Shown: positions 1 to 36,700 of the stretch, in pieces
Numbering within the stretch: the first letter of the stretch is position 1
How the letters are laid out: every line of letters starts with the position of its first letter
Origin: Tubiluchus corallicola
Lineage: Eukaryota; Animalia; Priapulida
Assembly (NCBI GenBank): GCA_030141605.1
Contig: JAQGDQ010000303.1
Coordinates: 218,858 to 282,857 of the forward strand
Length of the DNA: 64,000 nt
Direction of reading: 5' to 3'
The notes under the pieces: generated by a model
Database searches by the model: none
Told to the model about the DNA's origin: nothing
What the model saw: the letters and a program-made list of their open reading frames with translations, nothing else
Position numbers and translations under genes: made by a program

Positions 1-43
1 CAGTAATTATTAGTAAATCATCTAACCCACTCAACTGCCTTAA

Positions 44-1110: not shown

Positions 1111-1168
1111 TACTAGTGTCCTGTTTGGGTTGACTGCTAGGAGACGTCGCCCAGTTCACCTTCATTTC
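1111..1168 (-). CDS. TIA1/TIAL1: Internal coding exon of TIA-1/TIAR (Rox8) family RNA-binding protein: end of RRM1 and RRM1-RRM2 linker
   Basis: Minus strand reads ...ttttgattttcAG|GAA ATG AAG GTG AAC TGG GCG ACG TCT CCT AGC AGT CAA CCC AAA CAG GAC ACT AGT A|GTaagt = EMKVNWATSPSSQPKQDTS. This matches the family motif EVKVNWATTPSSQKKDTS (human) / EIKVNWATSPGNQPKTDIS (fly Rox8), recalled from memory. Strong acceptor and donor, phase 0 in and phase 1 out. Confidence 0.93.
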
Positions 1169-3283
1169 CTGAAAATCAAAAAAAACAAATCAAAAATTGG
1201 CAATCTTGAATGTAATTACAGCGAATACAACTCTGCTAAACACAGCAGAGCGGGAAAACAAAATAACAGACAAGCTGGACAATGAAGAAACAGACAGGTA
1301 AAGTTTGTTTGGTACAGTTCAAGATCAGAGACCTAGGTAAATTCCTGTTAAGTGCAATGAAATTTAGCATAAAATTTCCTTAGATAAATTCGTTGGGATT
1401 TCCTCTAGCACAAGAGGAAGAAGGATTTGCAGAAAATGTACAAAATTAGGTACATTTAAACGAATGTTAAGTGCCGGAGTTAAGCTCGAGATATGCAATG
1501 TAGTTGTACCATTGTAATTAGCAAAAAGGACTTACCTTTCAGCATGCTACTGTTTACGGTACATCGAACAACACAGATAGGCAGTAAGAACAACTTACAA
1601 ACTCAGTTTTCAGTGCTCTACATTCAGCTTACTTTAAGCAAAAGTAAAATTTCCCAAGAACCCCCAAATTTTTGGAGCTTCGAATGACACAATCCTCTTT
1701 GGTTTTATTGACAACAACGTTGGACTTTTTTCACAAAAATTCGATGTGGGGACCCATAAGCTTATTAAAGAGTAACAACAATGTAAACGGAAGGTTTAAT
1801 TATTAAAACTGCTCAATTTAAAATCGACCAAAATAAACCTTGCAAAAGTAATTTTCACTAGCCAAAATTGAGTGTCCACAGTTAAGCATCATTAGATCTA
1901 CAGGAGAAAAGTGGTAAGCATTCCTACACAACAAAAGGAATGCAGCGAGTACATACGAAATGTATGTAATTATTTCTATAATACGTTAAATTATCATATT
2001 ACGACGTATAATACGAACATTCAATGCATTACAATTTTCACTACATTAAGGTTGTATGAGCTGGTAATAAACAATTATCATTATTGCAGTAGATTATTTG
2101 TCAGAGTAGAAATTATAGTAAAAAACTTAGTTTAGAAATCACAATGTGTTTTTAATTTTGCAGTACTTTGCTAAATATTGACTAATAAAATTCCAAGCTC
2201 CCCATTTTAAACTTTCAGAATTCTTCACAATAACTACTGTCGTTGAATCATTACCATTAAACTGTAACAAATTTATAAGCTTAGCTGACTGAATTGATTT
2301 TTTCTCTTAACCAAAATTTATTTCACCCGTTGCTTCATTTACAAATTTAGATTAATTTCTGGCGCATATTAAATGTTTATCAACAACAATTTAGTTTAGC
2401 TGATTTTTTTTTGGATTCTTTTCTGCCAAGAAAGAAGTCAAATTTAACCAAATGACTGACTTTGATTCAGCTTCAAGATTTACCAGCTTCTATACGTTGT
2501 TGCAAAACTATTCAAAGTTCTAGTCAGAGAACAAATACAGGCAAATTTAACTGGGTAGAAGTCCCATAAACAACGAACCCAGCAGAAGTCAATCCAAGCC
2601 AAGGAAGGATATCATCATTGCATCAAGGCTGTGATTAATCTTGGTAATGTTTAGCCTATTGTTTTACTAGCAAATCTTTCACTCACTTAATTAATCGCAC
2701 AGAAGCCTAATTGATGGCCTTCTACTGCCCGGAGAAGCAATACTTGAAGCCAGCCTAGCCTTCCATGAAACAGTGAAGTGTGCAGAACGCTGGTAGTTTC
2801 CCATAAAATTAGGATGGAGTTGTTTTACGACAAGAGGAAGAGCAATTGCATCTCTACAGGAAGAGCAATTGCATCTCTACACGGCCTCTGTATTTACCCA
2901 ATAAACAAGCTTAAACGACTCATTAATTCTTCAAGTAGCCATAAATGGCAATATTAATTGAGAGGAGACAAGAAAGCTGAGAAGAATACGAAATGTCCTC
3001 AGGCTTATCAAATGAAACCCCACACTGCAATAAGAAACTTTGCACATGTAATACGAAGCCATGCATTTGTTTCGTGCAGCCGTCGCCAGGCTGCTCAAAT
3101 TCGCCTATTAAGTTTAATCAAATTTGATTAGCAACAATTGTTGAAAATGTTTGACTTGAATTATTAAATTATTAATTTTGCACGTGTAAGCAGGCGAATG
3201 TCAATAATACTGATTAAATTGGGATAGGATTAACGCGAATGAAGCCTTAAAACGGCCCCAATTTTTATCAGGGCACCTCCTAA

Positions 3284-3824
3284 TATTGGCTTTGCATGTC
3301 AAATTTAGACCTACGTTAACTCAAATGTAGATTTAGGTAATTCAAATGTGTCTCGGTAACTCAAATGTACACTTAGGTAGTTCAAATGTGTTAACAATGG
3401 TTTTCAACAAATCTTAAGCGCTTTTGGTAAGTCAAATGTGACATTGGTATCTCAAATGTGGATAGGTGGTAAAGCTTAAGGATGTTAAATTTAATCTCTT
3501 TTAATTTCAATTTAATAATTGCTACTAAGTTAAAATAACAACGTTATAGACCTACTAATAGATGCATGATCTTTGGTTTATCTTTTTCTAATTTGCACTT
3601 AAATAAGTTAATTACCAATTTATTCAATGTAATGCATCTACATTTGACTTACCTAAGTCACATTTGAGTTACCAAAACACATTCGAAATTCCTATGTCTA
3701 CATTTGACTTACCTAAGTCACATTTGAGTTACCAAAACACATTCGAAATTCCTATGTCTACATTTGACTTACCTAAGTCACATTTGAACTTTCCTGTATC
3801 TACATTTGACGTGTAAAACCTGTA
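3284..3824. mobile_element. Foldback MITE with ~20-bp subterminal repeats (TCAAATGT / ACATTTGA)
   Basis: Left arm has TCAAATGT repeats. Right arm has ACATTTGA repeats, including a 60-bp tandem. An inverted copy lies at 31866-32485. Confidence 0.75.
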
Positions 3825-5554
3825 TTGGCTTTGCATTTTTTTGATACACTGGTACATGTTACTGGGAAGTTGTAAGACTATTCCGGTTTTAACACTCTCT
3901 TACAAAAACTTAGGAGGCAATAATCTTTTGTCCTTTATTTTAGAGAACTATAGCGTGCCTCGGGGCTTGCAACACTAGAGTTGGTCTAGTTGCTTATAAA
4001 ATAATTAGTTTTCGATGCATTTTTATTTTATTTAATCAAGAAAAATGCAACATTTGCTTTATAATGTTTCTCTTCTATGCTTGGGTGATTTGTATTTACA
4101 TTAGTAATGACATTTGCTCCTTATACTCCACAGTTGTGCAATGGCATTACAGGAAAATGCAGCAAGCTTCCCGCTGTTTGATTTTTAAAAGACATGGACA
4201 AACCTGTAGATGCTTGACAAGACAACATACATGTCTGAAAAACTACCATCATCCTAACTAACATGAACTCAGCAAATAGCCCACGTGCTACACCAGCACA
4301 CTGAAAGGTCGTCTGACCCTCACCGTAGAACAGTAACTAATAACCAGAAATTGATGCTCCCCAAAGAGAGGAGGATAGATTGACCAAATTGCAGTTATTA
4401 CATTCGGGAGTAACATGCCATCAACAAGCAATTATTAATTTATACCTTTGGTCCCAAATGTAACAAGAACAATTATTACACTAAAGCATTGTTCAGAATA
4501 GAGTGATGAGTACAGGCGACCACAATAAATTGTGTAAAACAATTTCAATGCAAACTCTCAGGCAGCAGTCAAGTAAAAACATGTGGACTTTTTCATTCAA
4601 ATCACTAATTAATGCTGATAAACTTCTACTACATTACCAACTCCTCTCAAGAACACGTGAAAAGAAAAGATTTGCGTTTTCCTAACTGTATGCTAGACTA
4701 AATTACATTTATTTGTTTATCCATTTCCAAACAAGGTTACAATATACAAAATATTACAATTGCAACATTAACACTGCATTGCAGTGCCATGAAATTAACT
4801 TATAAGCTACATACTATTAACGTATAAATTACGCTATTCAAAAAGGAAAGCTATTTTAAGTAACAGACTACAATCAGTTAAACTCACAGCTAAAAACAAC
4901 AGAAATCTATTTAAGAGAGACAAACCTTTCATGAACGTAACAATAAATTTGGCCACGTTTCTTTGTACAAATGTACATCTTTGTTACAAATGTACATCAG
5001 CAGCAAAAGTGTAAAATGTATGCTCTTCACAATGGGGTAGGATATGAAAAATCATGCTGTTCTCTTTGATTAGCACTGCTGGACTTGTCTGACTTAACAG
5101 AGCATAGAAATGTTCGAGTTCATTTAGTTACTACTAAACAGACTGCCATTCTAAACACTTTTAAATAGCTACTGTATTCTCTAGACGATACGGTTGGTGA
5201 AAACTTTAATGCATTCACATGCAACATTTAATATCTTGTGACTTTTTCATTCCATTAATAGCTTGTCTATTGTTAATGGACGCATTACGCTATTCACATT
5301 TAAACGGCAATCAGACAATGGCGTTGCTCCAAAGAATTCATCCATCCTGACAACAGTTAAAGCTGATCAGGAGACAGACCATCATAAACAGCCTAACTTG
5401 ACGACTTTTCTACTTTCAAATTTAAGTGACTGGATTTTTGCACCAAAAAATATTAAAAACTGGTAAAAAAAATTATATTAGCTTTGCTGTGATTCAAACT
5501 CATACGCTTTGGTTCAACACGACAGTTAATTGGGTACATAGAATCACACATCAC

Positions 5555-5671
5555 CAGGGCCTATTTCAGCATAAAGCAAAAAAAAATAACGTTACCTCAG
5601 CGCGAGGCCCTCCCGGAGGGTGAGGCCCCGTGGAAGTATCCCCCCCAGCCCACCCCATGAAATAGGCCCTG
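5555..5671 (+). mobile_element. hAT-type MITE family A, internally deleted 117-bp copy
   Basis: TIR CAGGGCCTATTTCA/TGAAATAGGCCCTG with a perfect 8-bp TSD CACATCAC. Confidence 0.9.
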
Positions 5672-7113
5672 CACATCACACAGCTTCACACACAACAGAG
5701 TTCAGTGTCAAGTTTGGTCAAATAGCACTATACTACACTGCTATTGCCATTCCTACTGCATGATCAAATGGTACATTTCCAGATAAAATTCAACACTCAA
5801 ACGGTTACGGTATAATTTTGAAAATGTACATAATTTTGCTAATCTTTTGCCTGCTACTATAATCCTTACCCAAATTAGCTATGCGAGTGGAAATGGGAGC
5901 ATGTTAAAGAATCTATTTGCCTCTCAAACACGCCAGGGACAGTAAAAACACGTGCAACTCATCAATGCTATTGTGCAGACGTGAAAAGACGAATTTCATG
6001 CATTCTTTGTTGTTAAAGAAACAGCTGTTATATGGCAAATATTTGCGGACAAATTAATTTTCAGCCAACAACAAAAGCAGACAATATTTGGTAGCAGGTG
6101 TTAGACCAACAAGCTTAATTGTGTCAGAGCCATTTAATAACTACTTCCAATTTGCTAGCCTACCCATATCACTAAACAGCACTTCAAGCAACCACTGTAG
6201 TTTTTAACAGAAATAAATTACAAACCAGAATAAAGCAAATATATATAAGTGAAAAAAATAATTCATAAACAACGGCATACGCACACGCATGAGAGAAAGA
6301 ATAAGTGAGTGAACAACCAAACAAACGAACAAAGAAGTGGTATATGATAGATGTACTTAATTCTAGTTTCTACCAAAATTTACAGAAATATTCTGCTTCG
6401 ATGTAGGAAAAATTTTAAGTATATTCGACTGACTAGTACGCACAGAATTTTATTTATGTCAAAGTTATCACTTCTAGTTTGAAATAACGCAAACTAAAAA
6501 TGGCAAGCAAGTAAGTAAATTAACATGAAGGTTTAGAAAAGATTTATTTAACTGTCCAAGCTGCACCTGAAATCAACATAGAATTACTGGTTTTTAGCCA
6601 AATACCACCAATACATCTGATGTCAATCCATGGTTTGTACATCATTCTGTTCAAGTTGTTGCAAAGAAAGCACCACAATTTTCAACAAAAGCGTAAAAAT
6701 GGAAAGTGGTGTCTGTCCTATCCAGTTGAAATTCTGCATGGTCCTCAGTGGTTCCTTTGCTCTTTCGGACTTTCGGACCACGAATCCTTCATGAGCTCAT
6801 GACTTTATCATTGCAGCTTATGTACCAAAGTTTATTAATTACGCACACAACAGACAGGGGCACTTCCAGGAAATGAAAAATTGCCGGGAATTGTTTCAAG
6901 AAATCATCTAAAAGAAGATTCCGCTTCCAAACTTGTGTCCAAGGTATAGTTTAGTCAAGACAGAAATAAGCAATATTCACACATAAAACGTAACACTCAT
7001 TCAGGACCAAGCTATCAGATTTAGGTGACAAATTCTACTATGACAAGATGTCAGTTAGATATTAAGAAACAAATGCACACTTGACACTTTTACTGTGTCA
7101 CACTATTAGCAAC

Positions 7114-7505
7114 TAGGGGTGAGCATCGAACGCTCGAATTTGATTCGAACGAGTTTTTTTAGTTCGAACTCGATTCGAATCCAAAACTATAGATTCGAAT
7201 TATTCAGCACTTCAATCACATGTGTTCTTTATCACTAAAACGATTGAAACATCATGCAATTAGCATAATTTAGCTGTGACTTCTGCACACAGTTTTAAAG
7301 AAATTACTAGTCATTTTACTCCAGAACAAAATCTATGTGCATGATCTTTGTAAGACTAATTTTTGCTGGTGGTTCAAAAACTTCTTCGAAAATCGTTCAA
7401 TCTCAATTCGAATTCGAAACACTGAAGTTCGGTTCGATTCGAATCCGAAAGTCACAAATTCGGTTCGATTCGAATTCGCTTTCTGGTAGAGAATGCTCAC
7501 CCCTA
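7114..7505. mobile_element. hAT-type MITE with TTCGAA subterminal repeats
   Basis: TIR TAGGGGTGAGCAT/ATGCTCACCCCTA, TSD TTAGCAAC/CTAGCAAC. Confidence 0.88.
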
Positions 7506-8197
7506 CTAGCAACACAACCGTGTCTGCACCGTGTTTACAGAATGCTCACCCCTACTAGCAACACAACCGTGTCTGCACCGTGTCTACATAATCTCTACGT
7601 CTCTGTCCTCAAGCAAATCTTAATGCACAACTGCAAACTAAGCAGCTGATAAAAAGTGCAACCTTCAAAATGCAACAGGAAGAACATAATTTTTTTTTAA
7701 AAAACTGTAAGCAGGTACTGAAAGCTCGTTCGCAATGAACAGAATACTTCAAAATGTAAGTCTTTTGAGGCGTGAATTAGACAACATCTCAGAGGAAAGC
7801 CACCGAAAGCCTTACGTTCCAAATTACCAACTTTCACCATTTATTAACCACAGAAACATTCTAGTTAATGAATTCTTCCCAAATAGATGAAATTTATTGC
7901 TCCCCTGGGTGTAATATGCCCATATCGCATTAGGTGAACGCATATCATTAATTTCCTTTAATAACAGTCAACAATTATTAATGACCTATCGCTAAGCGTA
8001 TCACCTTGGACGTGTTTCTGTGACATGTCACCATTCCGTTCCAATGTAACACAGGGCAACCTACGTGTGTAAGCCATTTTTTAAAAAAAAAATGGTAAGC
8101 TGTTGCATTTTGTATATGTAAAAATATCTAATACTTTGTGTTGATAGTAGTGTTGTTTTTATATATTTTTTTGCAAACTACAAGCGAATCGTTTAGA

Positions 8198-8745
8198 AGA
8201 TGAAAAATAATCATAGTTAGACTTTCCCAATTAACACCTAATGCTTTACGTTTATAGCATTGTCGTTTGGGAGATGAAAAATAATCATAATCAGACTTTA
8301 CCAATTAACACCTAATGCTTTACGTTTATAGCAGTGTCGTTTGGGAGATGAAAAATAATCATAATCAGACTTTACCAATTAACACCTAATGCTTTACGTT
8401 TATAGCATTGTCGTTTGGGAGATGAAAAATAATCATAATCAGACTTTACCAATTAACACCTAATGCTTTACGTTTATAGCATTGGCGTTTGGGAGATGAA
8501 AAATAATCATAATCAGACTTTACCAATTAACACCTAATGCTTTACGTTTATAGCATTGTCGTTTGGGAGATGAAAAATAATCATAATCAGACTTTCCCAA
8601 TTAACACCTAATGCTTTACATTTATAGCATTGTCGTTTGGGAGATGAAAAATAATCATAGTTAGACTTTCCCAATTAACACCTAATGCTTTACGTTTATA
8701 GCATTGTCGTTTGGGAGATGAAAAATAGTCATAATCAGACTTTCG
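8198..8745. repeat. 74-bp minisatellite, ~7.4 copies
   Basis: Unit AGATGAAAAATAATCATAATCAGACTTTACCAATTAACACCTAATGCTTTACGTTTATAGCATTGTCGTTTGGG. Confidence 0.97.
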
Positions 8746-8954
8746 CAAATTCTCCAGCAAATCTTATCAAGAAATGCTAATTTAAATACAAAATTGAAAT
8801 GCAATCACTCAGGTGAGACGTCATTCAAGGACAATGACCCCCCCCCACACACACACACAAAACTTTTCAATTTTTTTATTTTGTAACTCTTCAAATTTGA
8901 TTGAATGCTAATCTAGCAATGCTGAAATGCATTCTGATAGCTGACTGGACAATG

Positions 8955-9580
8955 TACATTAATCATGATGCATACATTTCTAAATGGGCATTGTTTGCCA
9001 ATACAAATCATTAGCAGGTACTTCAATGGCCATAACATACGACTTTTAATCAGTAGAACTTATAATGACATCAATGATGAATTAAAAACTGTTCAGCCAA
9101 TTCAAAAATTTAAAAAGAAATACAGAGCAATGATTCTCAACAAGTACAACACTTCCTAATTTCCTACACCTACTGCAGCAGTCGTACCACAATCCTGGTA
9201 CAGATTATGCAAAACAAGGCATCATTGATAAACCTTTAGAGCTGATGTCAACATAGCACAATCTATTATCTTTCTTCCTACCATTTCCACTAACACATCC
9301 TTCTACCCTTCCCGTGTGATCTAACCTTTCTCCAAGTTCTTTTTTTGTTCACTCATCCATTCTTTTTTACCATGTGAGTGGTATAAACCCACTCACATGA
9401 CAGTGGGTTTATACAAGCCTTTGCTTCTCTAGCCACACTGCAGTACAATTATTCTTTTATGATAATGATAGTGTATGAAACATAACAATTTAATACAGTA
9501 TGACGTAATAATTTTGATGTCACTGTGTGCTTAATGTCATAATATTGTACTGAATGTGATAATAATAATAAATAAATAAT
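8955..9580 (+). mobile_element. 3' end of an L2/CR1-group LINE (ORF2 C-terminus, 3' UTR, (TAA)n tail)
   Basis: NDINDELKTVQPIQKFKKKYRAMILNKY fits the WNxL...FKKxL ORF2 tail motif. Near-identical to 24261-24755 and ends in AATAATAATAAATAAATAA. Confidence 0.75.
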
Positions 9581-11834
9581 TGAGATCAAACTACATGGCC
9601 TAATTCTCTTCTTAAACATGTTAAACATTTTTCTGGTTGTTCAAGGCTCTGCAGCACATTATAAGGTGCATGAGCAAACTAAGTCTGGCAATTTGTTCCA
9701 ATTTGTTCATACTCCAAGTGATAAGAAAATTTTTTACGGCAATTCCTTAAATTCACTGTAAATTATTGTGAAATACTTCATACCATATAATCAAAAAGGT
9801 TAACGGGTTTCAAAAGGACCTTGACAATTTGTCTTTTCGACTTTTCAAAAATTTTTGCTTCTGAAAGTCAGGTGCCTCAACCACAAATAAAGGTAATTCT
9901 TGCCTTGTGAAAAAGATTTAGATTCATTAAATGTTCATCCATTACTGGCAGCCATTCGATTCTGAATGAATGGCACAAAGCCTATGTCTCACTATCATTA
10001 AAATGTACCAATGAAACATACAAAAGACTGATGCCAAAATTAACCTACATTCACTGTATACAACAATTGTTTTGAGTCTCTAACCAAAACCGTTCTTATT
10101 AATTAATTTTTGTCTTTTTCACGTACATTGTACAAATTAATCAATAGCAATTATTTATTCAGTAATTGTGTCTTATAATAAATACAACTCTTGCCTTCTG
10201 ACTAAAGCCGTAACTGGACAGAAAATTAATGTTAGCAAGCAGTGTAACTGTGACATTTTTCTCAGCTGACTGAAAAACCAAAAAAAAAGCCATGTCTGTC
10301 TGCGACCAATTAAATCAGGTATAATATTTTTTCTCAACTTATTGTTAGCAGGATGACATAAATATGTCCCTATGGAACGTGGCCGACATTAGCGCAAGGA
10401 CGATTTCGCATTCTGGGCAGGTGCTTTGGTAATTCTTCCCAGGATGGTTAATAGTTTTGACTTAGCTAGCTGCAGTCTCGCCACTCAGAAATAACAAACG
10501 AATAGCATGCCACCAGGGACGCTGCAGTAGGCGAAGAATTTAAAGCAATTTTAGAGGATGAGCGTGTTGGAGGTTTTTTCTTGGAATGTCAAGCGTCTTG
10601 AGTCATTCTAAATTAATTAGCTTGGCAGCAAAGTTACCTTGGGATTCACAATTTCTTCTATTTTGCCATAATTCTGCCACTATTTAAAAATTTATCAATT
10701 ATGGCTGTATATATGGTATTCCAAACTCATCCCATATGGTCATTTTTGAAAACGACAATAGCTTTAGCTGTAACTTTCTAATACGATCTGTTTAGAGCAT
10801 TAAATGTTTGCTATCCAAACAAACATTACAATAGCGTTCTACCATCGACTTGAAGTCAAAGTCCAAATTTTTCCTGTTGACTGATTAAGGAGAAGGAAAA
10901 GAAGAAAAAAAGAGAAGATCATGTTCACCATACAAGAAAACGCATAATAGTGACTTTTAAGAAGAGAGTGGATATTCGATATGGAAAAAAACTGGTATGG
11001 AAGCATTGAGTACATCCTGCAAAATATTAAAAGTGATACAACACCATGGTGGCATGATGCTCACAGTAAACTATACGTTTGCATTGAGGATTTCTTCAAA
11101 TGTTAATGTAAAGTGCAGACAAAATTTGCAAGAATAATTTTGCTTGAATAGGAATACTATCACTTGCTTGATTCTAGTTTAAGCAAGTATGAATTTTCAG
11201 TATCATTTGAAAAGTTCGTCAACTCATACAAGTCAAGGTGTTTTTGCTAATATTGAATATAATCATATTAACACAATATGCAATTCAATATAATACCAGT
11301 TGGACCAATAATGTTTCTTAATTCAACACGGACTTTCATACGAAATCAATGGATTAACAATACTACTGCGTACGCTGTAATTTAAGTTTATTTTAATACA
11401 AAATTTTCAAGGATAATTTTTTTAATTGAATTATTCTTCTTATTCATAGGAAAACTATAAGATAAACTTCTCACCAGAACGTATCATTTATACATAAAAA
11501 TACAAATCAGACAAAATGAAATTGTTTAATACACAGTTCAATCTGAAAAAGTGAAATTACGAAGCTCCCAAAACTAAAACAAATATCATATCTTTGTTGA
11601 GTATTATTGGTACGAATTGCAATAATTACAACAAGACCAATAACTAAGATGTAAAGATCTTTATTTAAGTCTGCAAAGATGGAGAGATATCAGTAGTGCA
11701 TCAAGTTTGAAATTTCAATTTCATTAATACAATAATCCACGTAATATAATTATTTTGGCTCCTGTATTTATGCCATTTCTTCAATTTGCACAGAACTGTA
11801 AACAAGCCTAAACTAGAGTTCCAGTGTTTAAAAC

Positions 11835-12417
11835 GTTTTCTTTGTTTTTTATATAAATGCTCGATCTAATCTCTGTTTGATTTTGATACCGAGACAAAAT
11901 TTTGACATTTTGTTCAAGTTTTCTTTGTTTTTTATATAAATACTCGATCTAATCTCATTTTGATTTTGATACCGAGACAAAATTTTGACATTTTGTTCAA
12001 GTTTTCTTTGTTTTTTATATAAATACTCGATCTAATCTCTTTTTGATTTTGATACCGAGACAAAATTTTGACATTTTGTTCAAGTTTTCTTTGTTTTTTA
12101 TATAAATACTCGATCTAATCTCATTTTGATTTTGATACCGAGACAAAATTTTGACATTTTGTTCAAGTTTTCTTTGTTTTTTATATAAATACTCGATCTA
12201 ATCTCATTTTGATTTTGATACCGAGACAAAATTTTGACATTTTGTTCAAGTTTTCTTTGTTTTTTATATAAATACTCGATCTAATCTCTTTTTGATTTTG
12301 ACACTGAGACAAAATTTTGACATTTCGTTCAAGTTTTCTTTGTTTTTTATATAAATACTCGATCTAATCTCTTTTTGATTTTGATACCGAGACAAAATTT
12401 TGACATTTTGTTCAAGT
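11835..12417. repeat. 83-bp minisatellite, 7 copies
   Basis: Units start GTTTTCTTTG at 11835, 11918, 12001, 12084 and so on. Confidence 0.97.
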
Positions 12418-12503
12418 AAGTTTTATAAAAAAAGAAGAATAACGGCACCTGAACCTTTAACCACCTGAAAGCAATCCTCAAGTAGCAATTCAAGCAAGCT
12501 CAC

Positions 12504-12532
12504 CAGCCGACTGAAGAAGTCGAAGAACTTTT
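12504..12532 (-). other. Candidate 29-nt cassette exon
   Basis: tttttgtgggtttttcAG|AAAAGTTCTTCGACTTCTTCAGTCGGCTG|GTGAGc. Good acceptor and donor, open in all three frames, length not a multiple of 3. Confidence 0.3.
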
Positions 12533-13602
12533 CTGAAAAACCCACAAAAAATTATCCGCCTTGTTTCTGTGAGAACAAATGATTCTTCCAGTTACAATAA
12601 CCAATATTCATGTTCACTACACGAGCAAACCTTTACATACTTAGTTACATTGTACCTTTTAAATGAACTTAACAATTTCAATAAGAAAAATCACGTTACA
12701 ACTTATGATATCGAGTAAAGCGAAGTCATCGGTAGCCACACAACAAAAATGTAACACTACTGCATTTGATGCATAAAATAATGTGGTAAAAATACAACCT
12801 ATGGCACATGATCAACTGGAAAATGCGTGTAAAAAAGCAAAGAATAACCTGTGATGTGGTCCGTCGACGATTTGCAAATCATTTGTGGCTGTTTTCCCAC
12901 ATTTAAATAAGCAAAATTCTAAACCTGTAAGTTACGGAAGCAACTGTGACAACAACCTGGATGCAGTTAGATTAGGATGATGACGGGGAAGCACTAGAGA
13001 TTCCAGCATTTCAATTACTCTGAATTTTTACACTAGTCAGGCGTGAAGAAGAAGCAAAATTGTGTACCTTTCTGGGTGACAAATAAAGTCCGAAAATCAT
13101 AAGCCTACACACAAGCATAGGCAGTGCAAAGTATTTTCCACGAACTGCAACATTAAGCATCTGGTAAAAGTATGAAAAAAGGGGTTACCATCCACAAGGT
13201 TCCTTGAAAAACAGGAGCAGTAGGGTGGCGGCAGCTTCCGATAATGATGCGAACGTAGAGATGAATAATTATCAGTATGAAAAATATATACCACCTGATG
13301 CAATCCATACTTGGCAACATTTAAACTTTCCATGTTATGATAAAAAATAAATAAACCTGTTTTTCAATGCAGCACAGACCAGTCTTTGACCTGAAAGGAA
13401 TGAACTCGTCATCAAAAGTAGATGTAAATATCACCTGTGATCAACACCTGCTAACGTCCTTCTCTGACTGGAACATAAAACCCACGTATTACATAAAACA
13501 ATTTACCATTTTCATCCGCATTGTTGGTAGTCAAATGGGAAGTATCATGATTTTTAGGCGGGACATTATATATTACACGATTATAATGAATTAAGTGGTT
13601 AC

Positions 13603-13637
13603 CTCACTGAGGTGTTCCTGTATATTTATCAGGTAAC
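13603..13637 (-). CDS. Candidate 35-nt exon (xYLINIQEHLSE)
   Basis: ctgttttggttttcacAG|GTTACC...AGTGAG|GTaacc. Strong acceptor. Only one of the three frames is open, and it exits in phase 0, matching the TIA-1 exon. Confidence 0.4.
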
Positions 13638-14606
13638 CTGTGAAAACCAAAACAGAATAATAAATCAAAGAGCACAGACATCAGAGCACGGTTTAAATGA
13701 GCATACAGCTGTTGCAATAATTTAATCAATCATTTAGCAAAATGAGTAAAAGCAAAAGCAATCAACTTAGCAACAAAGTTTCAGACATGTAGGGATAGCT
13801 TACTGCAAAATTTTACATGTTTTACATGTCTAAAAATCGTCAAAGCTATTTTATTGAGATAACGACCAAACTAGTACTATCTAAGTAGCTAATTTCGCTT
13901 AATATTATATATATATAATTGCAAAATAGATCCCTGTTATAGGTGCATTACATTACAAAAGGTACAAGTACATTTTACATGCCATGTTAAACAGATATAT
14001 TTTCAGAACCTACATCGATCCACTATAACTTTTACAACTATCCCACATTGACTAGTCTAAAAATTGTTTGTATACAAGTTGCAAAAATCACCCAATGAAA
14101 TACAATCATTAAAGCAAAAGCGCATTCAAGTGAATGTTTAACGCAAGAAGGAATAGTTTTCAAGCCGCGGAGCAGGAGTAGGACACTCCGGAGAAGGCCT
14201 CTTATTGCTTCATTTATTGCAAAACTTTAAAAACTGCCAACCGTGAATCTAATCTGCTGCGCCAACCAAGCATTCCCAAAACTAACAAACTAGACCAATC
14301 AGGCACACTGTGCAACACATTTATACCTGATTAATAAAAACTTTTCCGGATACATTTATTTTATTGTAATATAATATATTTCTACCAAAAATTATGATAA
14401 GCTTGTAAACATGTATATAATATACAACATTTTACCAATCTTTACCCCATGCTGGTACTCTTCAATGAACTATTTTTTTATTTACAATATAATGATTTTG
14501 TTTTGGTACTTGAGCATTAGCAGAATCAGTTACTAAGGTTGAAATAAAAGTCAACAATTGACCTGGAGTGCTTCCTAGGGAATCACTGAGCCAACGAAGC
14601 TCCATC

Positions 14607-15003
14607 TAGGGGCGTATGAAGACTTTACGAGGCTGATAGTTCCCTTTATAGTGCATTTATGGTTGCTTATGTAATGAGCAGATTAAACAATTACTTGTGG
14701 TGCATTTTTAGAAACACTATTAACCTAGCTTCCACGTGGTCATTATTAGCTACATGTATTTACATAGCGTTTATATTTAAGCAGGCTGTGCAACTGCTTG
14801 TTGTGTAATACCTTGCACCTGTTCGTTATGTGGCATTTATATAAAGTTGTGATTAGTAACCGCCTGTGGTGTGTTATAATATGTGCCCTTACATGAAAAT
14901 GAAACTAGACACATTTTCCGAGACTTTTTGTAAAATGTGACGTCCCTCAAACTTTGTCGCCCTAGACTATAGCCTAGTTAGCCTATTGGCTAATATGCCC
15001 CTG
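14607..15003. mobile_element. hAT-type MITE
   Basis: TIR TAGGGGCGTAT/ATATGCCCCTG, TSD GCTCCATC/GCTGCATC. Confidence 0.75.
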
Positions 15004-15087
15004 GCTGCATCACATTCCACATACTTTTAAACCGACTCAATTACGCGAAAAAAAAACTGCAGCGTCTTCGAATTCGTTTCTCAAGCG

Positions 15088-15178
15088 TTTCTAGAGTATA
15101 CTGCCAACCCTCCCTTGTTCTAGAGCCTCCTGGCAACCCTCCCTTGTTCTAGAGCCTCCTGGCAACCCTCCCTCGTTC
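15088..15178. repeat. 29-bp tandem repeat, ~3 copies
   Basis: CAACCCTCCCTTGTTCTAGAGCCTCCTGG repeated. Confidence 0.85.
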
Positions 15179-15912
15179 CTTTCTTCACCAAACCACTAAC
15201 AGTATTCAGAAGAATTATACATTAAAATTCTGAAACAAACAGAATGAAACAAGAGCTCTCCATCAAAGGTTCGTCTAAACTTGAGTCAATAAGTCATCTA
15301 AAACAACAAGGGAACATTAACCGTTTCATCGTGCTGTTCAATATTTGCTAAAAATGTGCATAAATCTGTAAACAATTCTAGCACGTGATCGAAAACGATA
15401 TCCTGGCAATGTTGGCAGCCTTCTTGTTTTTCTTGTGGATCACCGTGAGGACTTTGAGGGCACGTAGTACTGGATCATAGGCTGCCATATTTAGAAACGT
15501 GTGTTATAGGCTTTATACAGGCAAATATCAGTTAATGTACCAGCAAACACATTAATTTGTCCCAATGCAAAAATATGGCATTTACAAAAATATTCAGGGA
15601 GAAATACGGGAGAAATTCAGGGACGTGTGTACACTGAATGTGGGTGTATGCATTGTCTTGTGCTACTAGAAAGAAAAACAGAAAAGGATTTTTATGTTAA
15701 GTGTTTATTGCAATCGGTGTTATAAAGATGACGAGTAGTGGTAATTTACAATATTGCAAGTGGACCGTTTCTTAGCACACATTTTGCCTTGGACCCAGTT
15801 TACCTGGCGTGGATAAGTAGGCCTACTTTATTTGAAAAGCAACGTTGCAAGTACCTGTTACTTAGTCAATCGAGTATTTCTTGACATTCTACTATACACG
15901 TTACTAAAAAAG

Positions 15913-16362
15913 CAGGGCCGGAACTAGATGTGGCAAGTGGGGGGGGGGCGCAAAAATTTTCTGGGGGGGGGGGGGGCGAGGTATCCGAAGTGGTTAAAAA
16001 ATGGTTAAGCCAATTTTAACCCCTTTTATACTGCATGCAGGCCTATAATTAGCATGTGTGTAGGACGGCGTAGCGGACAGAGCAATAATGAGAAAATTAA
16101 CTCTCAGTTAACCTAACGTTATTAATGTGCCTCTAACTAAATTGTTATTTACAGAAATTTATCACACACAAGTTTTAAGAAAATAATACACTGAAGCTAC
16201 CAAACATTTTTTTACCTAATTCTAATTCATATTGAAAATGATTACATGCGAACTGCAATTTTCACTGCAAAAAAAATTATTTGTCCGATTTTGCAGGGGG
16301 GGGTGGCGCAAATTTTGACAGGGGGCGCTCTCCTCGCTCCCCCCCCCCTAGTTCCGCCCCTG
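15913..16362. mobile_element. hAT-type MITE with G/C-run subtermini
   Basis: TIR CAGGGCCGGAACTAG/CTAGTTCCGCCCCTG with a perfect TSD TAAAAAAG. Confidence 0.88.
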
Positions 16363-17127
16363 TAAAAAAGACTAGGGTATGTGAGTTCAGAACAACGGCT
16401 AATTTGCAGTAATAAAACTTGACGATTCCTTTGAACAATGAGTTTTTTAGTCACAACCTATGCTAACGTCAGAAAAAACGCTTACAAAGGCCTTCACGGA
16501 TGAAACAACGCCCGAGCGATAACACACGACTCTCAAACAAACAAATAAACAAATAATTTAAAAGTTGTCAAAAGTGTCAACTGTAACCAGAGGTAACTTC
16601 CGCCCTAACAGTTTCACTTTCTGTTTGTAATTACTAACAAAACTTGTCTTGTAATTGAACTTCCTCCTAATGCCACTAGGCGACATCCCCACCCAAAAAA
16701 TGCAAGTCTTATTGGTCACCATCGACGTGTCATCGGAATACGAGTGCTAACCAAAGCATGCGACCAACCACATGGCTTCCTCTAAAGGTATTGAACAAAT
16801 AGCCCATTCTGGATTATTAGTCAACAGAGGGCGTACATGCGTGTCCGGCAAGGCCTCGGGAGAGCACGTTATATTTCGCTTCGTTTATACATGTTTTATG
16901 ACTCGCTGATGAAACTGCGCCCAGCAACAGAATCTCAATCAACTTGAGGTAGATTAGATGTTAAGCGAAATGTTGAGGTATGGCCTCATGGTTAGGTACA
17001 CTCAAGTACACACATCTGTAGGCAGGTCGAACCGAGAGACAAGCACACTGCAATCAACACGTCTTACTGGAGAGTATGCTCTTTGATATGACTAAATTAG
17101 AACGTGTCAGTTATAACTAGTAATGGC

Positions 17128-17703
<576 letters not shown>

Positions 17704-25819: not shown

Positions 25820-25829
25820 CTGTCTGTTT
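25820..25829 (-). CDS. Candidate 10-nt microexon (AAACAGACAG)
   Basis: tatgtttatAG|AAACAGACAG|GTAAGTatg: a consensus donor CAG|GTAAGT with an AG acceptor 10 nt upstream. An internal AG would give a 4-nt variant of the same phase. Confidence 0.3.
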
Positions 25830-26480
25830 CTATAAACATATATATACATACATATTTCTATAAATATATCATAAAGGAAAGTCAAATAATGGTAGTAAAA
25901 ATGGGCCTCAAAAAATTCAAAAACAGTTTCAAAGCCAAATAATGAAATAAATAACTAAAGAATGAAATGATCAAATTTATAAAAATAGAATCATGTAGTT
26001 TTGATAATTTCAAACTCACCTATCATGTCATTTTCCAATTTGTCCACAGCAACATGAAAAAAAACAGAGGAAAATTAGCTAAAAATCAGATAAGATACGA
26101 ATACTCGATTAAAACACAAATAAATAATCACTATTTTTACCATTAATGCTCTACTGAAACTCTGAAAGTGCATGTCTTTCTATTTAACTCATTCACTTAA
26201 GGGTTTAAAAGTTTATAACATTTTATAAGTCTCTATGACAAAACTCTTTCAAAACTTCCACAAGAATTCAACAGCTTAAACGGTTCAACTGAAGTAATGG
26301 CAGACACTTTTTTACCAGTTTTCTAATAAAAACTATTTCCTGTGGACAATGTACACGTGTTAGTAGCAGTTTACCATGATTTAACTTGAACAGCAAGAAG
26401 CAACCTAAAAAAATCTCAAAGTGCAAAAGAGTAAATTACGTCAACATTGTAACAATGTATTTGGGAAGAAGTTTATGATT

Positions 26481-26873
26481 CTAATCCTAATCTAATCCTA
26501 ACCATAGCCCTAACCCTAACCCTAGCCCTAACCTTAACCTTAACCCTAGTACTAACCCAACCTTAGCACAAACCCTAACCCTAACCCTAGCCCTAACCTA
26601 AACCCTAACTCTAACCCAACCTTAGCTCAAACGCTAACCCAACCCTAATTAAACCTTAATCCTAACTCAACCATAACCCCAACCAAACCCTAGCCCTAAC
26701 CTTAACCCTAGCCTAACCTTAACCCTAACTCTAACCCAACCTTAGCTCAAACGCTAACCCAACCCTAATTAAACCTTAATCCTAACTCAACCATAACCCT
26801 AACCAAATCCTAGCACTAACCCTAACCCAGCCTAACCCTAACCCTAATCCTAATATTAATCCTAATCCTAATC
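26481..26873. repeat. Degenerate telomere-like (CCCTAA)n tract with 120-bp higher-order duplication
   Basis: CCCTAA/CCTTAA/CCTAAT/CCTAGC hexamers. 26601-26720 is repeated at 26721-26840. Confidence 0.9.
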
Positions 26874-27685: not shown

Positions 27686-29024
27686 GGGAGATTTAATCAA
27701 GAGATGGCGCTTGCTTCATCGTGGCTTCCAATACAAGGTTAAAGACTATGATGCATCAGGGTGAAAAATGGCCGACTAAGAATCTAATTACAATATTACA
27801 GTTCATGTTAATTAATCACATATATTATGATACATATTGTTCGACCGCAAAGGAATGCCTCAGATGTAGCGTGCTCGCTTTGCAAGCAAGACAGTGTAGG
27901 TTAAACTCTCAGCCAAAAATACTACAGCTGGTTCTTTGTTCACGTAGGCCTAGACGTAGGCCTTATGGGGTTTTCGAAGTAATAGGTGGGAGATAATAAT
28001 CATTGTTTAAATCGTGGCTACATATGTAGTAATTTAGCTAAGTATGTAGTAAATAATTGTTTATGTGGCAAGTCATTGTAATTCAACGATGCTGAGTATT
28101 AGATTCACAACAAATCTCTAGAGTTCTCCAAAAACAGCAATATCGCCAATAATTACTTGTACAATACACTCGCCCCTATTGTGGCTATTATATCTAGCGT
28201 GTGCCTCGTCTGCATTGAAATTGTATGCGGGTGCACGCATCAGCATACGAATAGATGCATAACCCTCATTTCTGTTTTTAGTTATTCAATAACGTTCTAC
28301 TGTATGAAACAGTAGCTGTAGTCGTGTGTATACATGGTACAATACAGTGCAACTTGATATCATTAATTAAGAGTTTTCATTGCACACAAACGCGAAGCGT
28401 GTACTGCCGCATGTAGATATTAGAATATTATAATAGGCCAAATGATGGGAACATCACAGTAAGAATAAGATGGCTTAATTTTTAACCACGATTAATACTA
28501 CACGTTACAATTACAATATATACAATTATGCATTACAACAAGTTTTTGGAGATGTCGCTTACTGAAAACGTGCGCTTGTTTCTTTGTTAGTTGTTACTTT
28601 CTTACCTGTTGTTTATTGTTGTCTGTATACAAAAAATAACATTATCGTATATATTATTGTATTCAGTCTACTGCAGTTTTGAAGAATTTTAAGTGTTGCA
28701 AGTTGACTGAATATATGAATATTAATCGGTATGTTCCTGTATTTGTTCAGTCACTTATTATTCTGTTTCTGTGGCTTAGTTGTTTTTCACTACTGCCAGC
28801 TTTATTTTACGTTTTTTCATTATTTTGTTTATCTCTTCGTTTATACGTTCGTTAAGCATTTCTTTTTGCTTTTGATCATTTATCGATTTTCTCATTATAA
28901 CCAGAGAAGAAATGGTAAAACAGGTTAGATAGCACTAGGTGGCGGGAGGCGATAGGAAAACAAGTGGAAGCGATATATGTATTGAACATTTGAGTAAACC
29001 AGCTATTCATGTATATATATTTCC

Positions 29025-33807: not shown

Positions 33808-35115
33808 TGGTTACATTATAGTGCATTGCTAGAGGCGCTAGTGCAAACAGTGCACTAAAAGAAGTGTTACCTATGCTGCAATGCACTACTATCAGGGTTG
33901 GTTACATTACAGTGCATTGCTAGAGGCGCTAGTGCAAACAGTGCACTAAAAGAAGCGTTGCCAATGCTGCAATGCACTACTATCAGGGTTGGTTACATTA
34001 CAGTGCATTGCTAGAGGCGCTAGTGCAAACAGTGCACTAAAAGAAGCGTTGCCAATGCTGCAATGCACTACTATCAGGGTTGGTTACATTACAGTGCATT
34101 GCTAGAGGCGCTGGTGCAAACAGTGCACTAAAAGAAGTGTTACCTATGCTGCAATGCACTACTATCAGGGTTGGTTACATTACAGTGCATTGCTAGAGGC
34201 GCTAGTGCAAACAGTGCACTAAAAGAAGCGTTACCAATGCTGCAATGCACTACTATCAGGGTTGGTTACATTACAGTGCATTGCTAGAGGCGCTAGTGCA
34301 AACAGTGCACTAAAAGAAGTGTTACCTATGCTGCAATGCACTACTATCAGGGTTGGTTACATTACAGTGCATTGCTAGAGGCGCTAGTGCAAACAGTGCA
34401 CTAAAAGAAGCGTTACCAATGCTGCAATGCACTACTATCAGGGTTGGTTACATTACAGTGCATTGCTAGAGGCGCTAGTGCAAACAGTGCACTAAAAGAA
34501 GCGTTGCCAATGCTGCAATGCACTACTATCAGGGTTGGTTACATTACAGTGCATTGCTAGAGGCGCTGGTGCAAACAGTGCACTAAAAGAAGCGTTGCCA
34601 ATGCTGCAATGCACTACTATCAGGGTTGGTTACACTACAGTGCATTGCTAGAGGCGCTAGTGCAAACAGTGCACTAAAAGAAGCGTTGCCAATGCTGCAA
34701 TGCACTACTATCAGGGTTGGTTACATTACAGTGCATTGCTAGAGGCGCTAGTGCAAACAGTGCACTAAAAGAAGCGTTACCAATGCTGCAATGCACTACT
34801 ATCAGGGTTGGTTACATTACAGTGCATTGCTAGATGCGCTGGTGCAAACAGTGCACTAAAAGAAGCGTTGCCAATGCTGCAATGCACTAGTGCAAACAGT
34901 GCACTAAAAGAAGCGTTGCCAATGCTGCAATGCACAACTATCAGGATTGGTTACACTACAGTGCACTGCTAGAGGCGCTACTGCAAACAGTGCACAAAAA
35001 GAAGCGTTGCCAATGCTGCAATGCACAACTACCAGGGTTGGTTACACTACAGTGCACTGCTAGAGGCGCTAGTGCAAACAGTGCACTAAAAAAAGTGTTG
35101 ACAATGCTGCAATGC
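33808..35115. repeat. 91-bp minisatellite, ~14 copies, TGCA-rich
   Basis: Units start GGTTACATTACAGTGCATTGCTAGAGGCGC at 33809, 33900, 33991 and so on. Confidence 0.98.
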
Positions 35116-35217
35116 GTGTTGGCTAGACGCACGGAATAGTTGCAGTGTAAACTGTACTTTTTTTCAAACATCCAGATATTTTCAATTTGAGTTGATTTGT
35201 AAAAACTGCCATCTTGT

Positions 35218-35374
35218 TGTTCACTCTCATTGGAATCACTTCTGCTATACAGAATGGGGAGATCTTAACTGTTCACTCTCATTGGAATCACTTCTGCTAT
35301 ACAGAATGGGGAGATCTTAACTGTTCACTCTCATTGGAATCACTTCTGCTATAGAGAATGGGGAGATCTTAACT
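35218..35374. repeat. 52-bp tandem repeat, 3 copies
   Basis: TGTTCACTCTCATTGGAATCACTTCTGCTATACAGAATGGGGAGATCTTAAC x3. Confidence 0.95.
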
Positions 35375-35677
35375 ATGTCAGTTCGGGAAAGTGGGCTAAA
35401 TGGTGTTGGCCGTACATGTGGGCATGAATGACCATGACACACGTACGATTTTACAATTCATCTACGAAACAGGTCACACAGGTTACAACTATCACCTGCA
35501 CATGTTCCTAACTTTCGCATATTACACTACCCCGCATAGTGCAACCAAAAAATGACAAAATAACAAAGACGCTTATTTACAGTCGCCGGGACAATAGACA
35601 ACGTTAGCTATAAGACACTCTTGACGGATACAACAGCACATAAACAATACAGATAACAACTGTTTGCGCCAGTGTAG

Positions 35678-35757
35678 GTGGCAGTGGGATTCGAACTCGG
35701 GTTGTAAAGCAGAAAAACACTCACAGTCCGTCACCTTAACCACTCGGCCATCCGTAC
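35678..35757 (-). pseudogene. tRNA-derived sequence (tRNA pseudogene or SINE head)
   Basis: Minus strand GTACGGATGGCCGAGTGGTTAAGG (A box) ... GAGTTCGAATCCCAC (B box). The anticodon and acceptor stems do not pair properly. Confidence 0.7.
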
Positions 35758-36282
35758 TGATAACAAAGAAAAACATACGCAAAGCTAGTGCCAAACAACT
35801 GTTCTATCTGAAACAAACAATTACGGCGTAGGGCAGTGGCAGAAGTACTGGTGCGCATGTCTCTTATCAGCATTTGTAAAAAAACAGATAAAAAATCAAC
35901 ATATTTTATTGATGCCGTAAAAAGTAATCCAGAGTAATTAATACTAACTATTTATTCTCTCAGTTACTCTTGCTAACTCTCTCACACTTACACTGAATAA
36001 GGTTATTACACAACTTACCAAGCAACATAATATTAATCCACAAAGACTAGAGAATGCGCAACATGCTTGATGAGCTGTTAGCTTCCTCTTTTAAAACGTG
36101 GCGTAAATAAAAGCAAGTAATCGAAACTACGATTAATTTTCATAAAATTATAGCATAAATTATAAAATTTCATATACTATAGTGCTTAATTGCCATATTT
36201 AATCATAGGTCAGAAAATTAACGCAAATTGCTATTAATTCTTTTCTTATCCACGAAACAGGAAGTTCAAGGAAAAAACTTAC

Positions 36283-36345
36283 GAGTGGACTGGGTGTCTG
36301 CGTCGCCGTCTCCATTTTCAGCAGAACAGGGGTCCACATAAGCAT
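36283..36345 (-). CDS. Candidate coding part of an alternative first exon (MLMWTPVLLK-METATQTPSPL), phase-0 donor
   Basis: ATGs at 36345 and 36315 (AAAATGG, good Kozak context) are in frame to the donor CTC|GTAAGTTTTTT at 36283/36282. It lies ~300 bp downstream of a promoter-like element, and its phase is compatible with the TIA-1 exon. No homology recognised. Confidence 0.45.
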
Positions 36346-36604
36346 GGATTCTCCTTACTATTGCGAACCGAAAGAGAATGAATGTTGAGAGACCTTCACG
36401 AAAGACGTGACAGAACCGTCACAGGAGTGTATAATAGTCGGAACGACCGAGAAACGGATTGGAGAAAAGATGTTATTCACATAGCGCGAGGTACTCCTCC
36501 ACGACGAGCCGCCTACACAACCGACACGAACAATACTAACCTCAACTACACAATGGCCACATCAAATAACATGCAATAACAGCTTATTAATTATTTACAT
36601 CACA

Positions 36605-36700
36605 GTAGGGTCGCAAACGCGCGCGCGAAGCCCGGGAAGCCAATTGGCTGGATCCAAGCGTTTCCATGGCAACGACGATTCGATAAACAGCCAATGGTGA
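36605..36700. promoter_or_regulatory. Promoter-like module: RFX X-box, two CCAAT elements, GC-rich/E2F-like tract
   Basis: GTTTCCATGGCAAC (36660-36673) is a near-perfect palindromic X-box. AGCCAATTGGCT (36638-36649) is a palindromic CCAAT and AGCCAATGG lies at 36689-36697. CGCGCGCGCGAA and CCCGGGAAG make the site locally CpG-rich in an AT-rich background. Confidence 0.65.

What the first reader, a model, noticed from the sequence alone, without database searches (positions are those of the whole stretch)
1111..36700. Possible RRM1-less TIA-1/TIAR isoform from an internal promoter, with a new N-terminus built from tiny exons
Seen: the exon at 1111-1168 is the one that closes RRM1, but I found no exon encoding YVGNL, DPYCFVEF or AMNxR in the 63 kb upstream. 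Also seen: candidate exons 36283-36315, 25820-25829 and 13603-13637 join without a stop into METATQTPSPL-KQTG-YLINIQEHLSE-EMKVNWATSPSSQPKQDTS. The 10-nt and 35-nt exons sum to 45 nt, and the 10-nt exon sets exactly the only open frame of the 35-nt exon. Direct joining of 36283 to 1168 is also in frame. Established: RRM2/RRM3 carry most U-rich RNA binding in TIA-1, while RRM1 assists U1-C recruitment. Inference: this could be a protein that binds RNA but has altered splicing-activator function. Alternatively the small exons are 5' UTR and translation starts at the ATG of MKVNW.
Basis: partly seen in the sequence, partly recalled or inferred. Interest (0 to 1): 0.8.

Follow-up and report, generated by a model that had tools for sequence, protein, structure and literature searches.

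The report
Conserved RRM1-less TIA-1 with LC8 motif
A long intron of this animal's gene for the RNA-binding protein TIA-1 holds a tiny exon whose peptide recurs in abalone and ribbon-worm gene models, so it likely starts a shortened TIA-1 that lacks its first RNA-binding domain and instead carries a motif predicted to bind the dimerising hub protein LC8.

Summary
The four exon candidates exist and join in frame. 1111-1168 ends TIA-1/TIAR RRM1; the rest of RRM1 is not in the window. The one RNA contig on that exon joins it to a normal RRM1 exon beyond the window and does not cover the candidates. So the gene is intact and the window is a >62.8-kb intron. Comparative support is strong for exon 36283: RefSeq isoforms of Haliotis (mollusc) and Lineus (nemertean) carry the same METATQTP peptide and lack RRM1, Haliotis by a direct join. 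Chance gave an 8-residue match in 1 of 200 resampled windows. RRM1-less N-termini are common: 47 of 248 TIA-like proteins. New reading: ETATQTP fits published LC8/DYNLL motif rules and lies in a predicted unstructured region; binding is untested. The 10-nt and 35-nt micro-exons have no homologue or read support, and the 35-nt one may be a poison exon. Verdict: probably a real, old alternative first exon (0.85); LC8 swap about 0.5; micro-exon N-terminus about 0.3.

The parts
36592..36695 (-). Putative internal promoter: CCAAT boxes (36691-36695 on +, 36643-36647 on -), near-palindromic X-box-like site 36660-36673, GC/CpG-rich patch near 36626, TAAATA at 36592-36597
   Evidence: The site fits the GYTRYY-N2-RRHRAC consensus of PMC2375033. 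Near-perfect palindrome: 1 match vs 0.18 expected, 17 of 100 shuffles. Degenerate consensus: 4 vs 3.5 expected. TSS not mapped.
36283..36345 (-). Coding 3' end of the alternative first exon; in-frame ATGs at 36345, 36339 and 36315 (only 36315 has A at -3 and G at +4); phase-0 donor gtaagt followed by a U-rich tract
   Evidence: The same METATQTP peptide occurs in Haliotis P0189/P0193 and Lineus P0047/P0055. It is the best match in the window to any alternative N-terminus.
36292..36312 (-). Codons for E-T-A-T-Q-T-P, candidate LC8/DYNLL-binding motif (positions -4 to +2, Q = 0)
   Evidence: Rules and binder table of PMC6607443; region unstructured in the AF2 model of the Haliotis isoform; binding untested.
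25820..25829 (-). Candidate 10-nt micro-exon: best donor in the intron, poor acceptor; unproven
   Evidence: rough recalled PWM: donor 8.9, acceptor -3.3.
13603..13637 (-). Candidate 35-nt exon: top-ranked micro-exon candidate of the intron; open only when entered in phase 1; gives a stop at its third codon when entered in phase 0
   Evidence: No cover by the RNA contigs in bin 13272-13848.
1111..1168 (-). TIA-1/TIAR exon encoding the last strand of RRM1 and the RRM1-RRM2 linker; common acceptor of the alternative 5' ends
   Evidence: A spliced contig of run X2 joins it upstream to a canonical RRM1 exon end and downstream to the RRM2 start.

Best explanation
The window is part of a >62.8-kb intron of a TIA-1/TIAR gene, inside which a likely internal promoter drives a conserved alternative first exon (ending at 36283) that would splice, probably directly, to the exon at 1168 and give a TIA-1 isoform with RRM1 replaced by a short, predicted-disordered peptide whose ETATQTP motif is predicted to bind the dimeric hub protein LC8/DYNLL. 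Shown: the exons and frames; absence of RRM1 from the window; a canonical RRM1 exon spliced to 1168 in one RNA contig; the same peptide in RRM1-less gene models of two other phyla. Inferred: transcription from the internal promoter in this species (about 0.85) and LC8 binding (about 0.5-0.55). Inferred consequence: the isoform keeps U-rich RNA binding (RRM2/3) and the Q-rich tail, loses the RRM1 help in U1-C recruitment, and is paired by an LC8 dimer. That would raise RNA avidity and granule formation and shift it from splicing activator towards cytoplasmic RNA-granule scaffold. The X-box-like site hints at RFX control in ciliated cells, neurons or sperm (weak, about 0.3). The two micro-exons are optional extras at best (about 0.3 as an in-frame pair).
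For: Haliotis rufescens/cracherodii XP_046366212.1, XP_071089694.1 and kin (P0189, P0193) join MLMETATQTPP directly to EMKVNW; Lineus longissimus XP_064631332.1 and XP_064631333.1 (P0047, P0055) start MLMETATQTPP and lack RRM1. The longest exact match between the window's six frames and 24 alternative N-termini (962 aa) is this 8-mer; 1 of 200 Markov-resampled windows reached 8. Among 34 minus-strand Met-to-donor candidates it scores 43, next 29; best of 32 plus-strand controls 28. TQT occurs ahead of RRM2 in only 4 of 248 TIA-like proteins, these four. PMC6607443 (passages and section 7): TQT anchor, P/D/E at +2, polar -4, no bulky -2, no pre-anchor proline. Its ITC-validated binders include BCL2L11 and Bassoon (STQTPSP; the window has ATQTPSP) and CAPRIN2 (TASTQTPP). 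AF2 model of the Haliotis isoform: residues 1-69 pLDDT <50, RRM2 and RRM3 folded. PMC8836218 (passages): RRM2 binds U-rich RNA helped by RRM3, and U1-C binding is RRM1-favoured. PMC9282019 (passages): the LC8 orthologue DLC-1 binds RNA-binding proteins and aids germ-granule assembly.
Against: No RNA from this organism shows exon 36283. The single RNA-like run X2 has zero depth over 36022-36643, and its one contig on exon 1168 runs into the canonical RRM1 exon; one contig set of unknown tissue, 2 differing letters in 60. The supporting isoforms are predicted RefSeq models whose read support I could not inspect. The motif was not among the listed members for Mytilus (15 of 20 and 15 of 36 listed), Ruditapes (8 of 8) or Owenia (2 of 2). 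Many TQT peptides do not bind LC8 (31 of 53 tested peptides showed no binding, not all with TQT). Position -3 is Thr rather than the favoured large or basic residue. A start at 36315 leaves only 4 residues before the TQT, where at least 5 were used; a start at 36345 or 36339 fixes this. The X-box is not beyond chance under the degenerate consensus.
Confidence: 0.55

Rival explanations
1. The first exon and RRM1-less isoform are real, but the peptide is not an LC8 ligand. It is conserved for another reason (translation-start context, N-terminal acetylation, a Thr-Pro phospho-site, or an overlapping RNA element), and the isoform acts simply as a delta-RRM1 TIA-1 that competes for U-rich sites with weaker U1 recruitment.
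For: At least 24 different alternative N-termini join the same acceptor across protostomes, and only 4 of 47 such proteins carry TQT, so removing RRM1 may be the main point. PTBP3 makes natural RRM1-truncated isoforms that keep RNA binding (PMC4477659 passages). TQT is necessary-like but not sufficient for LC8 binding.
Against: Eight residues kept unchanged between two phyla centre exactly on a TQT with Pro at +2 in an unstructured tail, the pattern of known binders.
Confidence: 0.3
2. One reading: exon 36283 plus the 10-nt and 35-nt micro-exons are spliced as an obligate in-frame pair to build a 26-residue (or longer) new N-terminus.
For: 13637 is the best acceptor and 25820 the best donor on the minus strand, and 13603-13637 ranks first among micro-exon candidates, with none as good on the plus strand. 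The 10-nt exon is the only 1 of 18 upstream candidates that opens the 35-nt exon in frame (the score cut-off was set at its own score). Lineus also puts internal exons between the METATQTP exon and EMKVNW.
Against: Random candidate pairs are in frame 29 of 270 times (11%). The 10-nt exon's acceptor has no pyrimidine tract, and 22 minus and 10 plus candidates score as well in sum. A better-scoring acceptor at 25857 would give 38 nt, out of frame. There is no homologous peptide or RNA cover. PWMs are rough recalled frequencies.
Confidence: 0.3
3. The 35-nt exon is a poison cassette: spliced in after the canonical RRM1 exon or after exon 36283 (both phase 0) it places a stop at its third codon and sends the mRNA to NMD, as TIA proteins do to their own pre-mRNAs.
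For: Phase-0 entry gives V-T-stop. It has a strong acceptor and a weak donor (2.7) followed by an AU-rich tract, 42% U. Human TIA1/TIAR activate PTC-bearing exons with weak 5' sites on their own pre-mRNAs (PMC4385921 passage).
Against: No reads. The U content after the donor is only modestly above this 63% AT genome. Its one open frame happens to lead in frame into exon 1168.
Confidence: 0.25
4. All three upstream candidates are chance intron sequence and only the canonical RRM1-bearing TIA-1 is made.
For: The only RNA junction seen is canonical; exon 36283 is uncovered in X2.
Against: An exact 8-residue match to RRM1-less isoforms of two other phyla at a Met and phase-0 donor, and promoter-like sequence directly upstream.
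Confidence: 0.1

Closest known systems
RefSeq-predicted TIA1/TIAR-like isoforms of Haliotis (X5/X6/X8; XP_046366212.1, XP_071089694.1) and Lineus longissimus (X9, X10; XP_064631332.1, XP_064631333.1)
   Same: Same METATQTP peptide, no RRM1, joined in phase 0 ahead of EMKVNW.
   Different: Here the exon ends ...TPSPL and has WTPVLLK between MLM and the motif. Haliotis joins directly; Lineus uses other internal exons. These are unannotated predictions and I found no paper on them.
Other RRM1-less protostome TIA-1/Rox8 gene models (MHPYYY.. type in Haliotis, Ruditapes, Mytilus; Owenia, Plectus, Oedothorax, Ornithodoros types)
   Same: Alternative 5' exons spliced to the same acceptor before the last RRM1 strand: 47 of 248 proteins.
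   Different: Unrelated peptides, no TQT; none found in this window.
Human TIA1a/TIA1b and TIAR
   Same: RRM1-RRM2-RRM3-Q-rich layout; the exon matches the RRM1 end.
   Different: The reviewed major isoforms differ by an 11-aa exon at the start of RRM2 and keep RRM1 (PMC8836218 passages).
PTBP3 AUG11 isoform (PMC4477659)
   Same: Natural loss of most of RRM1; remnant not stably folded; RNA binding kept; more cytoplasmic.
   Different: Made by downstream initiation, gains no new motif, and belongs to a different protein family.
LC8/DYNLL clients: BCL2L11 (Bim), Bassoon, CAPRIN2, Panoramix, C. elegans PGL/MEG proteins
   Same: TQT anchor with Pro at +2 in a disordered region. LC8 dimerises the PICTS complex (PMC7861614 abstract) and aids P-granule assembly.
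   Different: No TIA-family member was found described as an LC8 client. Here the motif would be switched on by promoter choice in exchange for a folded domain.

Membership tests
TIA-1/TIAR/Rox8 gene | RRM1 C-terminal strand plus linker (KVNWAT.P) followed by RRM2 start (H.FVGDL) | tested here: met
   the X2 contig continues into the RRM2 start.
TIA-1/TIAR/Rox8 gene | Intact RRM1 in the main isoform | tested here: met
   The X2 contig joins a canonical RRM1 exon end (reads M-C-L-G-K, 16 nt seen) to 1168; that exon is not in the window.
TIA-1/TIAR/Rox8 gene | RRM3 and Q/N-rich C-terminal domain | not testable with these tools
   They lie beyond the window's left end; no genome is held.
Alternative first exon (internal promoter) | Transcript 5' ends mapped upstream of the exon and spliced reads from its donor | tested here: inconclusive
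   One RNA-like contig run, no cover; contigs cannot show absence.
Alternative first exon (internal promoter) | Orthologous exon used in other species, in the same phase, to the same acceptor | tested here: met
   Haliotis direct join, Lineus via internal exons; protein models only, genomic structure not seen.
LC8/DYNLL-binding short linear motif | TQT anchor; polar -4; non-bulky -2; P/D/E at +2; no pre-anchor proline | tested here: met
   E(-4) T(-3) A(-2) T Q T P(+2) compared by eye with the rules in PMC6607443; -3 is Thr, acceptable but not optimal; LC8Pred not run.
LC8/DYNLL-binding short linear motif | Motif in a disordered region with about 5 residues N-terminal of TQT | tested here: inconclusive
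   Unstructured in the AF2 model of the Haliotis isoform. 6 residues precede TQT in Lineus and more in Haliotis; here 4 from ATG 36315, 12 or 14 from the upstream ATGs.
LC8/DYNLL-binding short linear motif | Demonstrated binding to LC8 | not testable with these tools
RFX target promoter (X-box) | GYTRYY-N1-3-RRHRAC within 1 kb of the ATG, palindromic, conserved between species | tested here: inconclusive
   Match at 36660-36673, about 315 nt upstream of the first ATG, near-palindromic. The degenerate form is at chance level; conservation not testable.
Coding micro-exons (10 nt + 35 nt pair) | Spliced inclusion and frame-preserving use, or conservation | tested here: inconclusive
   Frame holds only as a pair; no reads; no homologue; 11% of random pairs are in frame.

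The most novel reading that the evidence does not exclude
Since before molluscs and nemerteans split, lophotrochozoan TIA-1 has carried an RFX-type internal promoter that swaps RRM1 for an LC8-binding motif. Promoter choice thus turns a monomeric U1-recruiting splicing activator into an LC8-dimerised RNA-granule scaffold in ciliated, neural or sperm cells. It is one of a wider, undescribed set of plug-in N-termini at the same RRM1 acceptor across protostomes.
Probability: 0.35. Interest if true: 0.75.

Novelty: new variant of a known kind. Interest (0 to 1): 0.55.

Why it matters
TIA-1/TIAR are core stress-granule nucleators and 5' splice-site activators, and their isoforms are described mostly as small insertions in RRM2. 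A natural, anciently conserved RRM1-less class would separate the splicing and granule functions by promoter choice. If the motif binds LC8, it would be a domain-for-motif swap linking TIA-1 directly to a dimerisation hub already tied to germ granules and piRNA silencing. It is cheap to test: one peptide ITC and one RT-PCR. If LC8 does not bind, it remains an ordinary but unstudied alternative first exon already present in predicted annotations.

Tried and rejected
No genome is held for the window, so the RRM1 exons beyond 64000 could not be located. Sequencing runs: no RNA holder on record was listed; two runs only. X2 gave no cover on exons 36283 and 13603: not evidence of silence. The 10-nt exon was in neither laid stretch (1-17300, 35400-44700). 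A search with the exon-1 read-through ORF among longer proteins gave 3 candidates, none scoring; P0055 residues 1-42 gave no candidate, because the isoforms hide under canonical cluster representatives. A degenerate METATQTP DNA pattern in metagenome contigs gave 24 of 24 unrelated, mostly GC-rich hits, none TIA-like. ESM Atlas with the Haliotis N-terminus: best score 0.84, leads only. Other known alternative first exons (MHPYYY.. type and others) were not found in the window. The idea that the gene lost RRM1 outright was rejected. No LC8 sequence could be obtained (one search returned nothing usable), so no LC8-peptide complex was folded. Earlier scan findings: none. Paper searches for an RRM1-less TIA-1 isoform or a TIA-1/LC8 link found nothing on point (listings only unless cited as read); subscription journals are mostly not covered, and the Bombyx BmTRN-1 isoform papers (recalled to include truncated forms) were not readable.


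Full report
Observation. The window is AT-rich animal DNA (37% GC, no N) full of minisatellites, with no long credible ORF. Either micro-exon alone causes a stop, so they work only as a pair. The 58-nt exon at 1111-1168 matches the end of RRM1 of human TIA-1/TIAR and retrieves TIA-1/Rox8 proteins.

Where is RRM1? Not in the window. tblastn with 123 RRM1-bearing N-termini gave only noise. HMMs of the two halves scored at most 8.2 and 6.5 bits, against at least 62 and 51 on their training sequences (an in-sample control). Two public runs were available. X1 behaves as DNA and confirms 36281-36716 as contiguous sequence. X2, guessed to be RNA and of the same species label, has one contig (405 nt, depth 131, 2 differing letters in 60) on 1111-1170. 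I read its loose ends by hand: upstream M-C-L-G-K, a normal RRM1 exon end like those of Owenia and Ruditapes, and downstream the start of RRM2. That upstream exon end is absent from the window at up to 3 mismatches. So the gene is intact and the window lies in an intron longer than 62.8 kb. X2 shows no cover on the 35-nt exon's bin or on exon 36283; this is one contig set of unknown tissue and does not show silence.

Comparative evidence. Cluster listings (at most 15 members listed per cluster) exposed isoforms hidden under canonical representatives. Lineus longissimus X9 and X10 begin MLMETATQTPP and reach EMKVNW through other short segments without RRM1. Haliotis rufescens and H. cracherodii models join MLMETATQTPP straight to EMKVNW. 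The window's exon reads METATQTPSPL, with in-frame ATGs ten and eight codons further up. The 8-residue identity is the longest between the window's six frames and 24 alternative N-termini; 1 of 200 resampled windows reached 8 anywhere. Among Met-to-donor candidates it scores 43, against 29 for the next of 34 on the minus strand and 28 for the best of 32 on the plus strand. Of 294 proteins fetched, 248 were TIA-like and at least 250 aa: 170 with full RRM1, 47 with an unrelated N-terminus at this acceptor, 20 with half of RRM1, 7 starting at MKVNW, 4 unclassified. The 47 span molluscs, a nemertean, an annelid, a nematode, a spider and a tick, so this acceptor is a general plug-in point. All are predicted models; that RefSeq isoform models usually rest on RNA-seq is recalled, not checked. 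The organism is not identified; the exon-1168 peptide is identical to that of Haliotis, which suggests a lophotrochozoan.

Mechanism. PMC8836218 (passages) states that RRM2, helped by RRM3, binds U-rich RNA and that U1-C binding by the Q/N domain is RRM1-favoured. An AF2 model of the Haliotis isoform (30-row alignment) has residues 1-69 under pLDDT 50, including the motif and the orphan RRM1 strand, with RRM2 and RRM3 folded. The conserved core is E-T-A-T-Q-T-P. PMC6607443 (passages and section 7) defines LC8 ligands by a TQT anchor with P/D/E at +2, a polar -4, no bulky -2 and no pre-anchor proline, all met here. Validated binders include Bim and Bassoon (STQTPSP, against ATQTPSP here) and CAPRIN2 (TASTQTPP). 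TQT occurs ahead of RRM2 in only these 4 of 248 proteins. Against: many TQT peptides fail to bind, -3 is not the favoured large or basic residue, and the strongest-context ATG leaves only four residues before the anchor. I could not fold a complex because no LC8 sequence was available. LC8 is known to bind RNA-binding proteins in P granules (PMC9282019 passages) and to dimerise the PICTS complex (PMC7861614 abstract). I infer an isoform that binds RNA, recruits U1 poorly and is paired by LC8, which would favour condensates. Upstream of the exon lie two CCAAT boxes, a CpG-rich patch and a near-palindromic X-box. The X-box fits the consensus in PMC2375033 (passages), but the statistics are modest: 1 vs 0.18 expected for the tight form, chance level for the loose form.

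Micro-exons. With rough recalled weight matrices, the 35-nt exon is the top candidate in the 35-kb stretch and has the best minus-strand acceptor. The 10-nt exon has the best donor but a poor acceptor. It is the only 1 of 18 upstream candidates that opens the 35-nt exon, yet 29 of 270 random candidate pairs are in frame and the cut-off was set at its own score. No homologue and no read supports either. Entered in phase 0 the 35-nt exon gives an immediate stop, which fits the known TIA autoregulatory poison exons (PMC4385921 passage). I put the in-frame pair at about 0.3 and the poison reading at about 0.25.

Comparison and novelty. The gene is a member of the TIA-1/TIAR family. The isoform type already stands in predicted annotations of other species, so it is not unique to this genome. 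Searches of the held library found no paper on RRM1-less TIA-1 isoforms or on a TIA-1/LC8 link; most subscription papers are outside that library. The nearest described analogue is the RRM1-truncated PTBP3 isoform (PMC4477659 passages). No supplements were opened; the LC8 motif tables in the supplements of PMC6607443 could refine the motif score. No earlier scan finding bears on this.

Verdict. Observation confirmed; interpretation partly supported. A conserved alternative first exon giving an RRM1-less TIA-1 is likely (0.85), the LC8-binding role is plausible and untested (about 0.5), and the micro-exon N-terminus is unproven (about 0.3). New variant of a known kind, interest 0.55.

Noticed in passing
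window 58308-58412 (-): 5S rRNA-like sequence just above Rfam's gathering score (41.8 vs 38 bits), probably a pseudogene or 5S-derived repeat.
   Followed up: no
window 35675-35756 (-): tRNA-like A and B box sequence seen by eye, not called by ARAGORN; likely a tRNA-derived SINE head.
   Followed up: partly
window 26481-26871: Degenerate telomere-like (CTAACC)n array inside the intron, about 650 nt upstream of the 10-nt candidate exon.
   Followed up: no
window 25820-25849 (-): The strong donor at 25820 also ends a short phase-0 ORF (M-Y-I-Y-V-Y-R-N-R-Q) that would join exon 1168 in frame, so it could close another first exon instead of a micro-exon.
   Followed up: partly
window 1536 and 28606-28622 (-): Two further strong donors (8.1 and 7.3); the second closes a 17-nt candidate exon ranked second overall.
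   Followed up: no
proteins P0187-P0200, P0046-P0059: Haliotis and Lineus models have an optional 7-10 residue segment between the linker exon and RRM2, at the same place as the vertebrate TIA1a exon 5.
   Followed up: no
proteins P0192, P0026, P0206: A second conserved RRM1-less first exon (MHPY..YVQY.P...KQ.M) is shared by Haliotis, Ruditapes and Mytilus; not found in this window.
   Followed up: partly
window 1-730, 9233-9809, 37888-38509, 41309-41619: Very high-copy interspersed repeats, with summed contig depth in the thousands in run X1.
   Followed up: no
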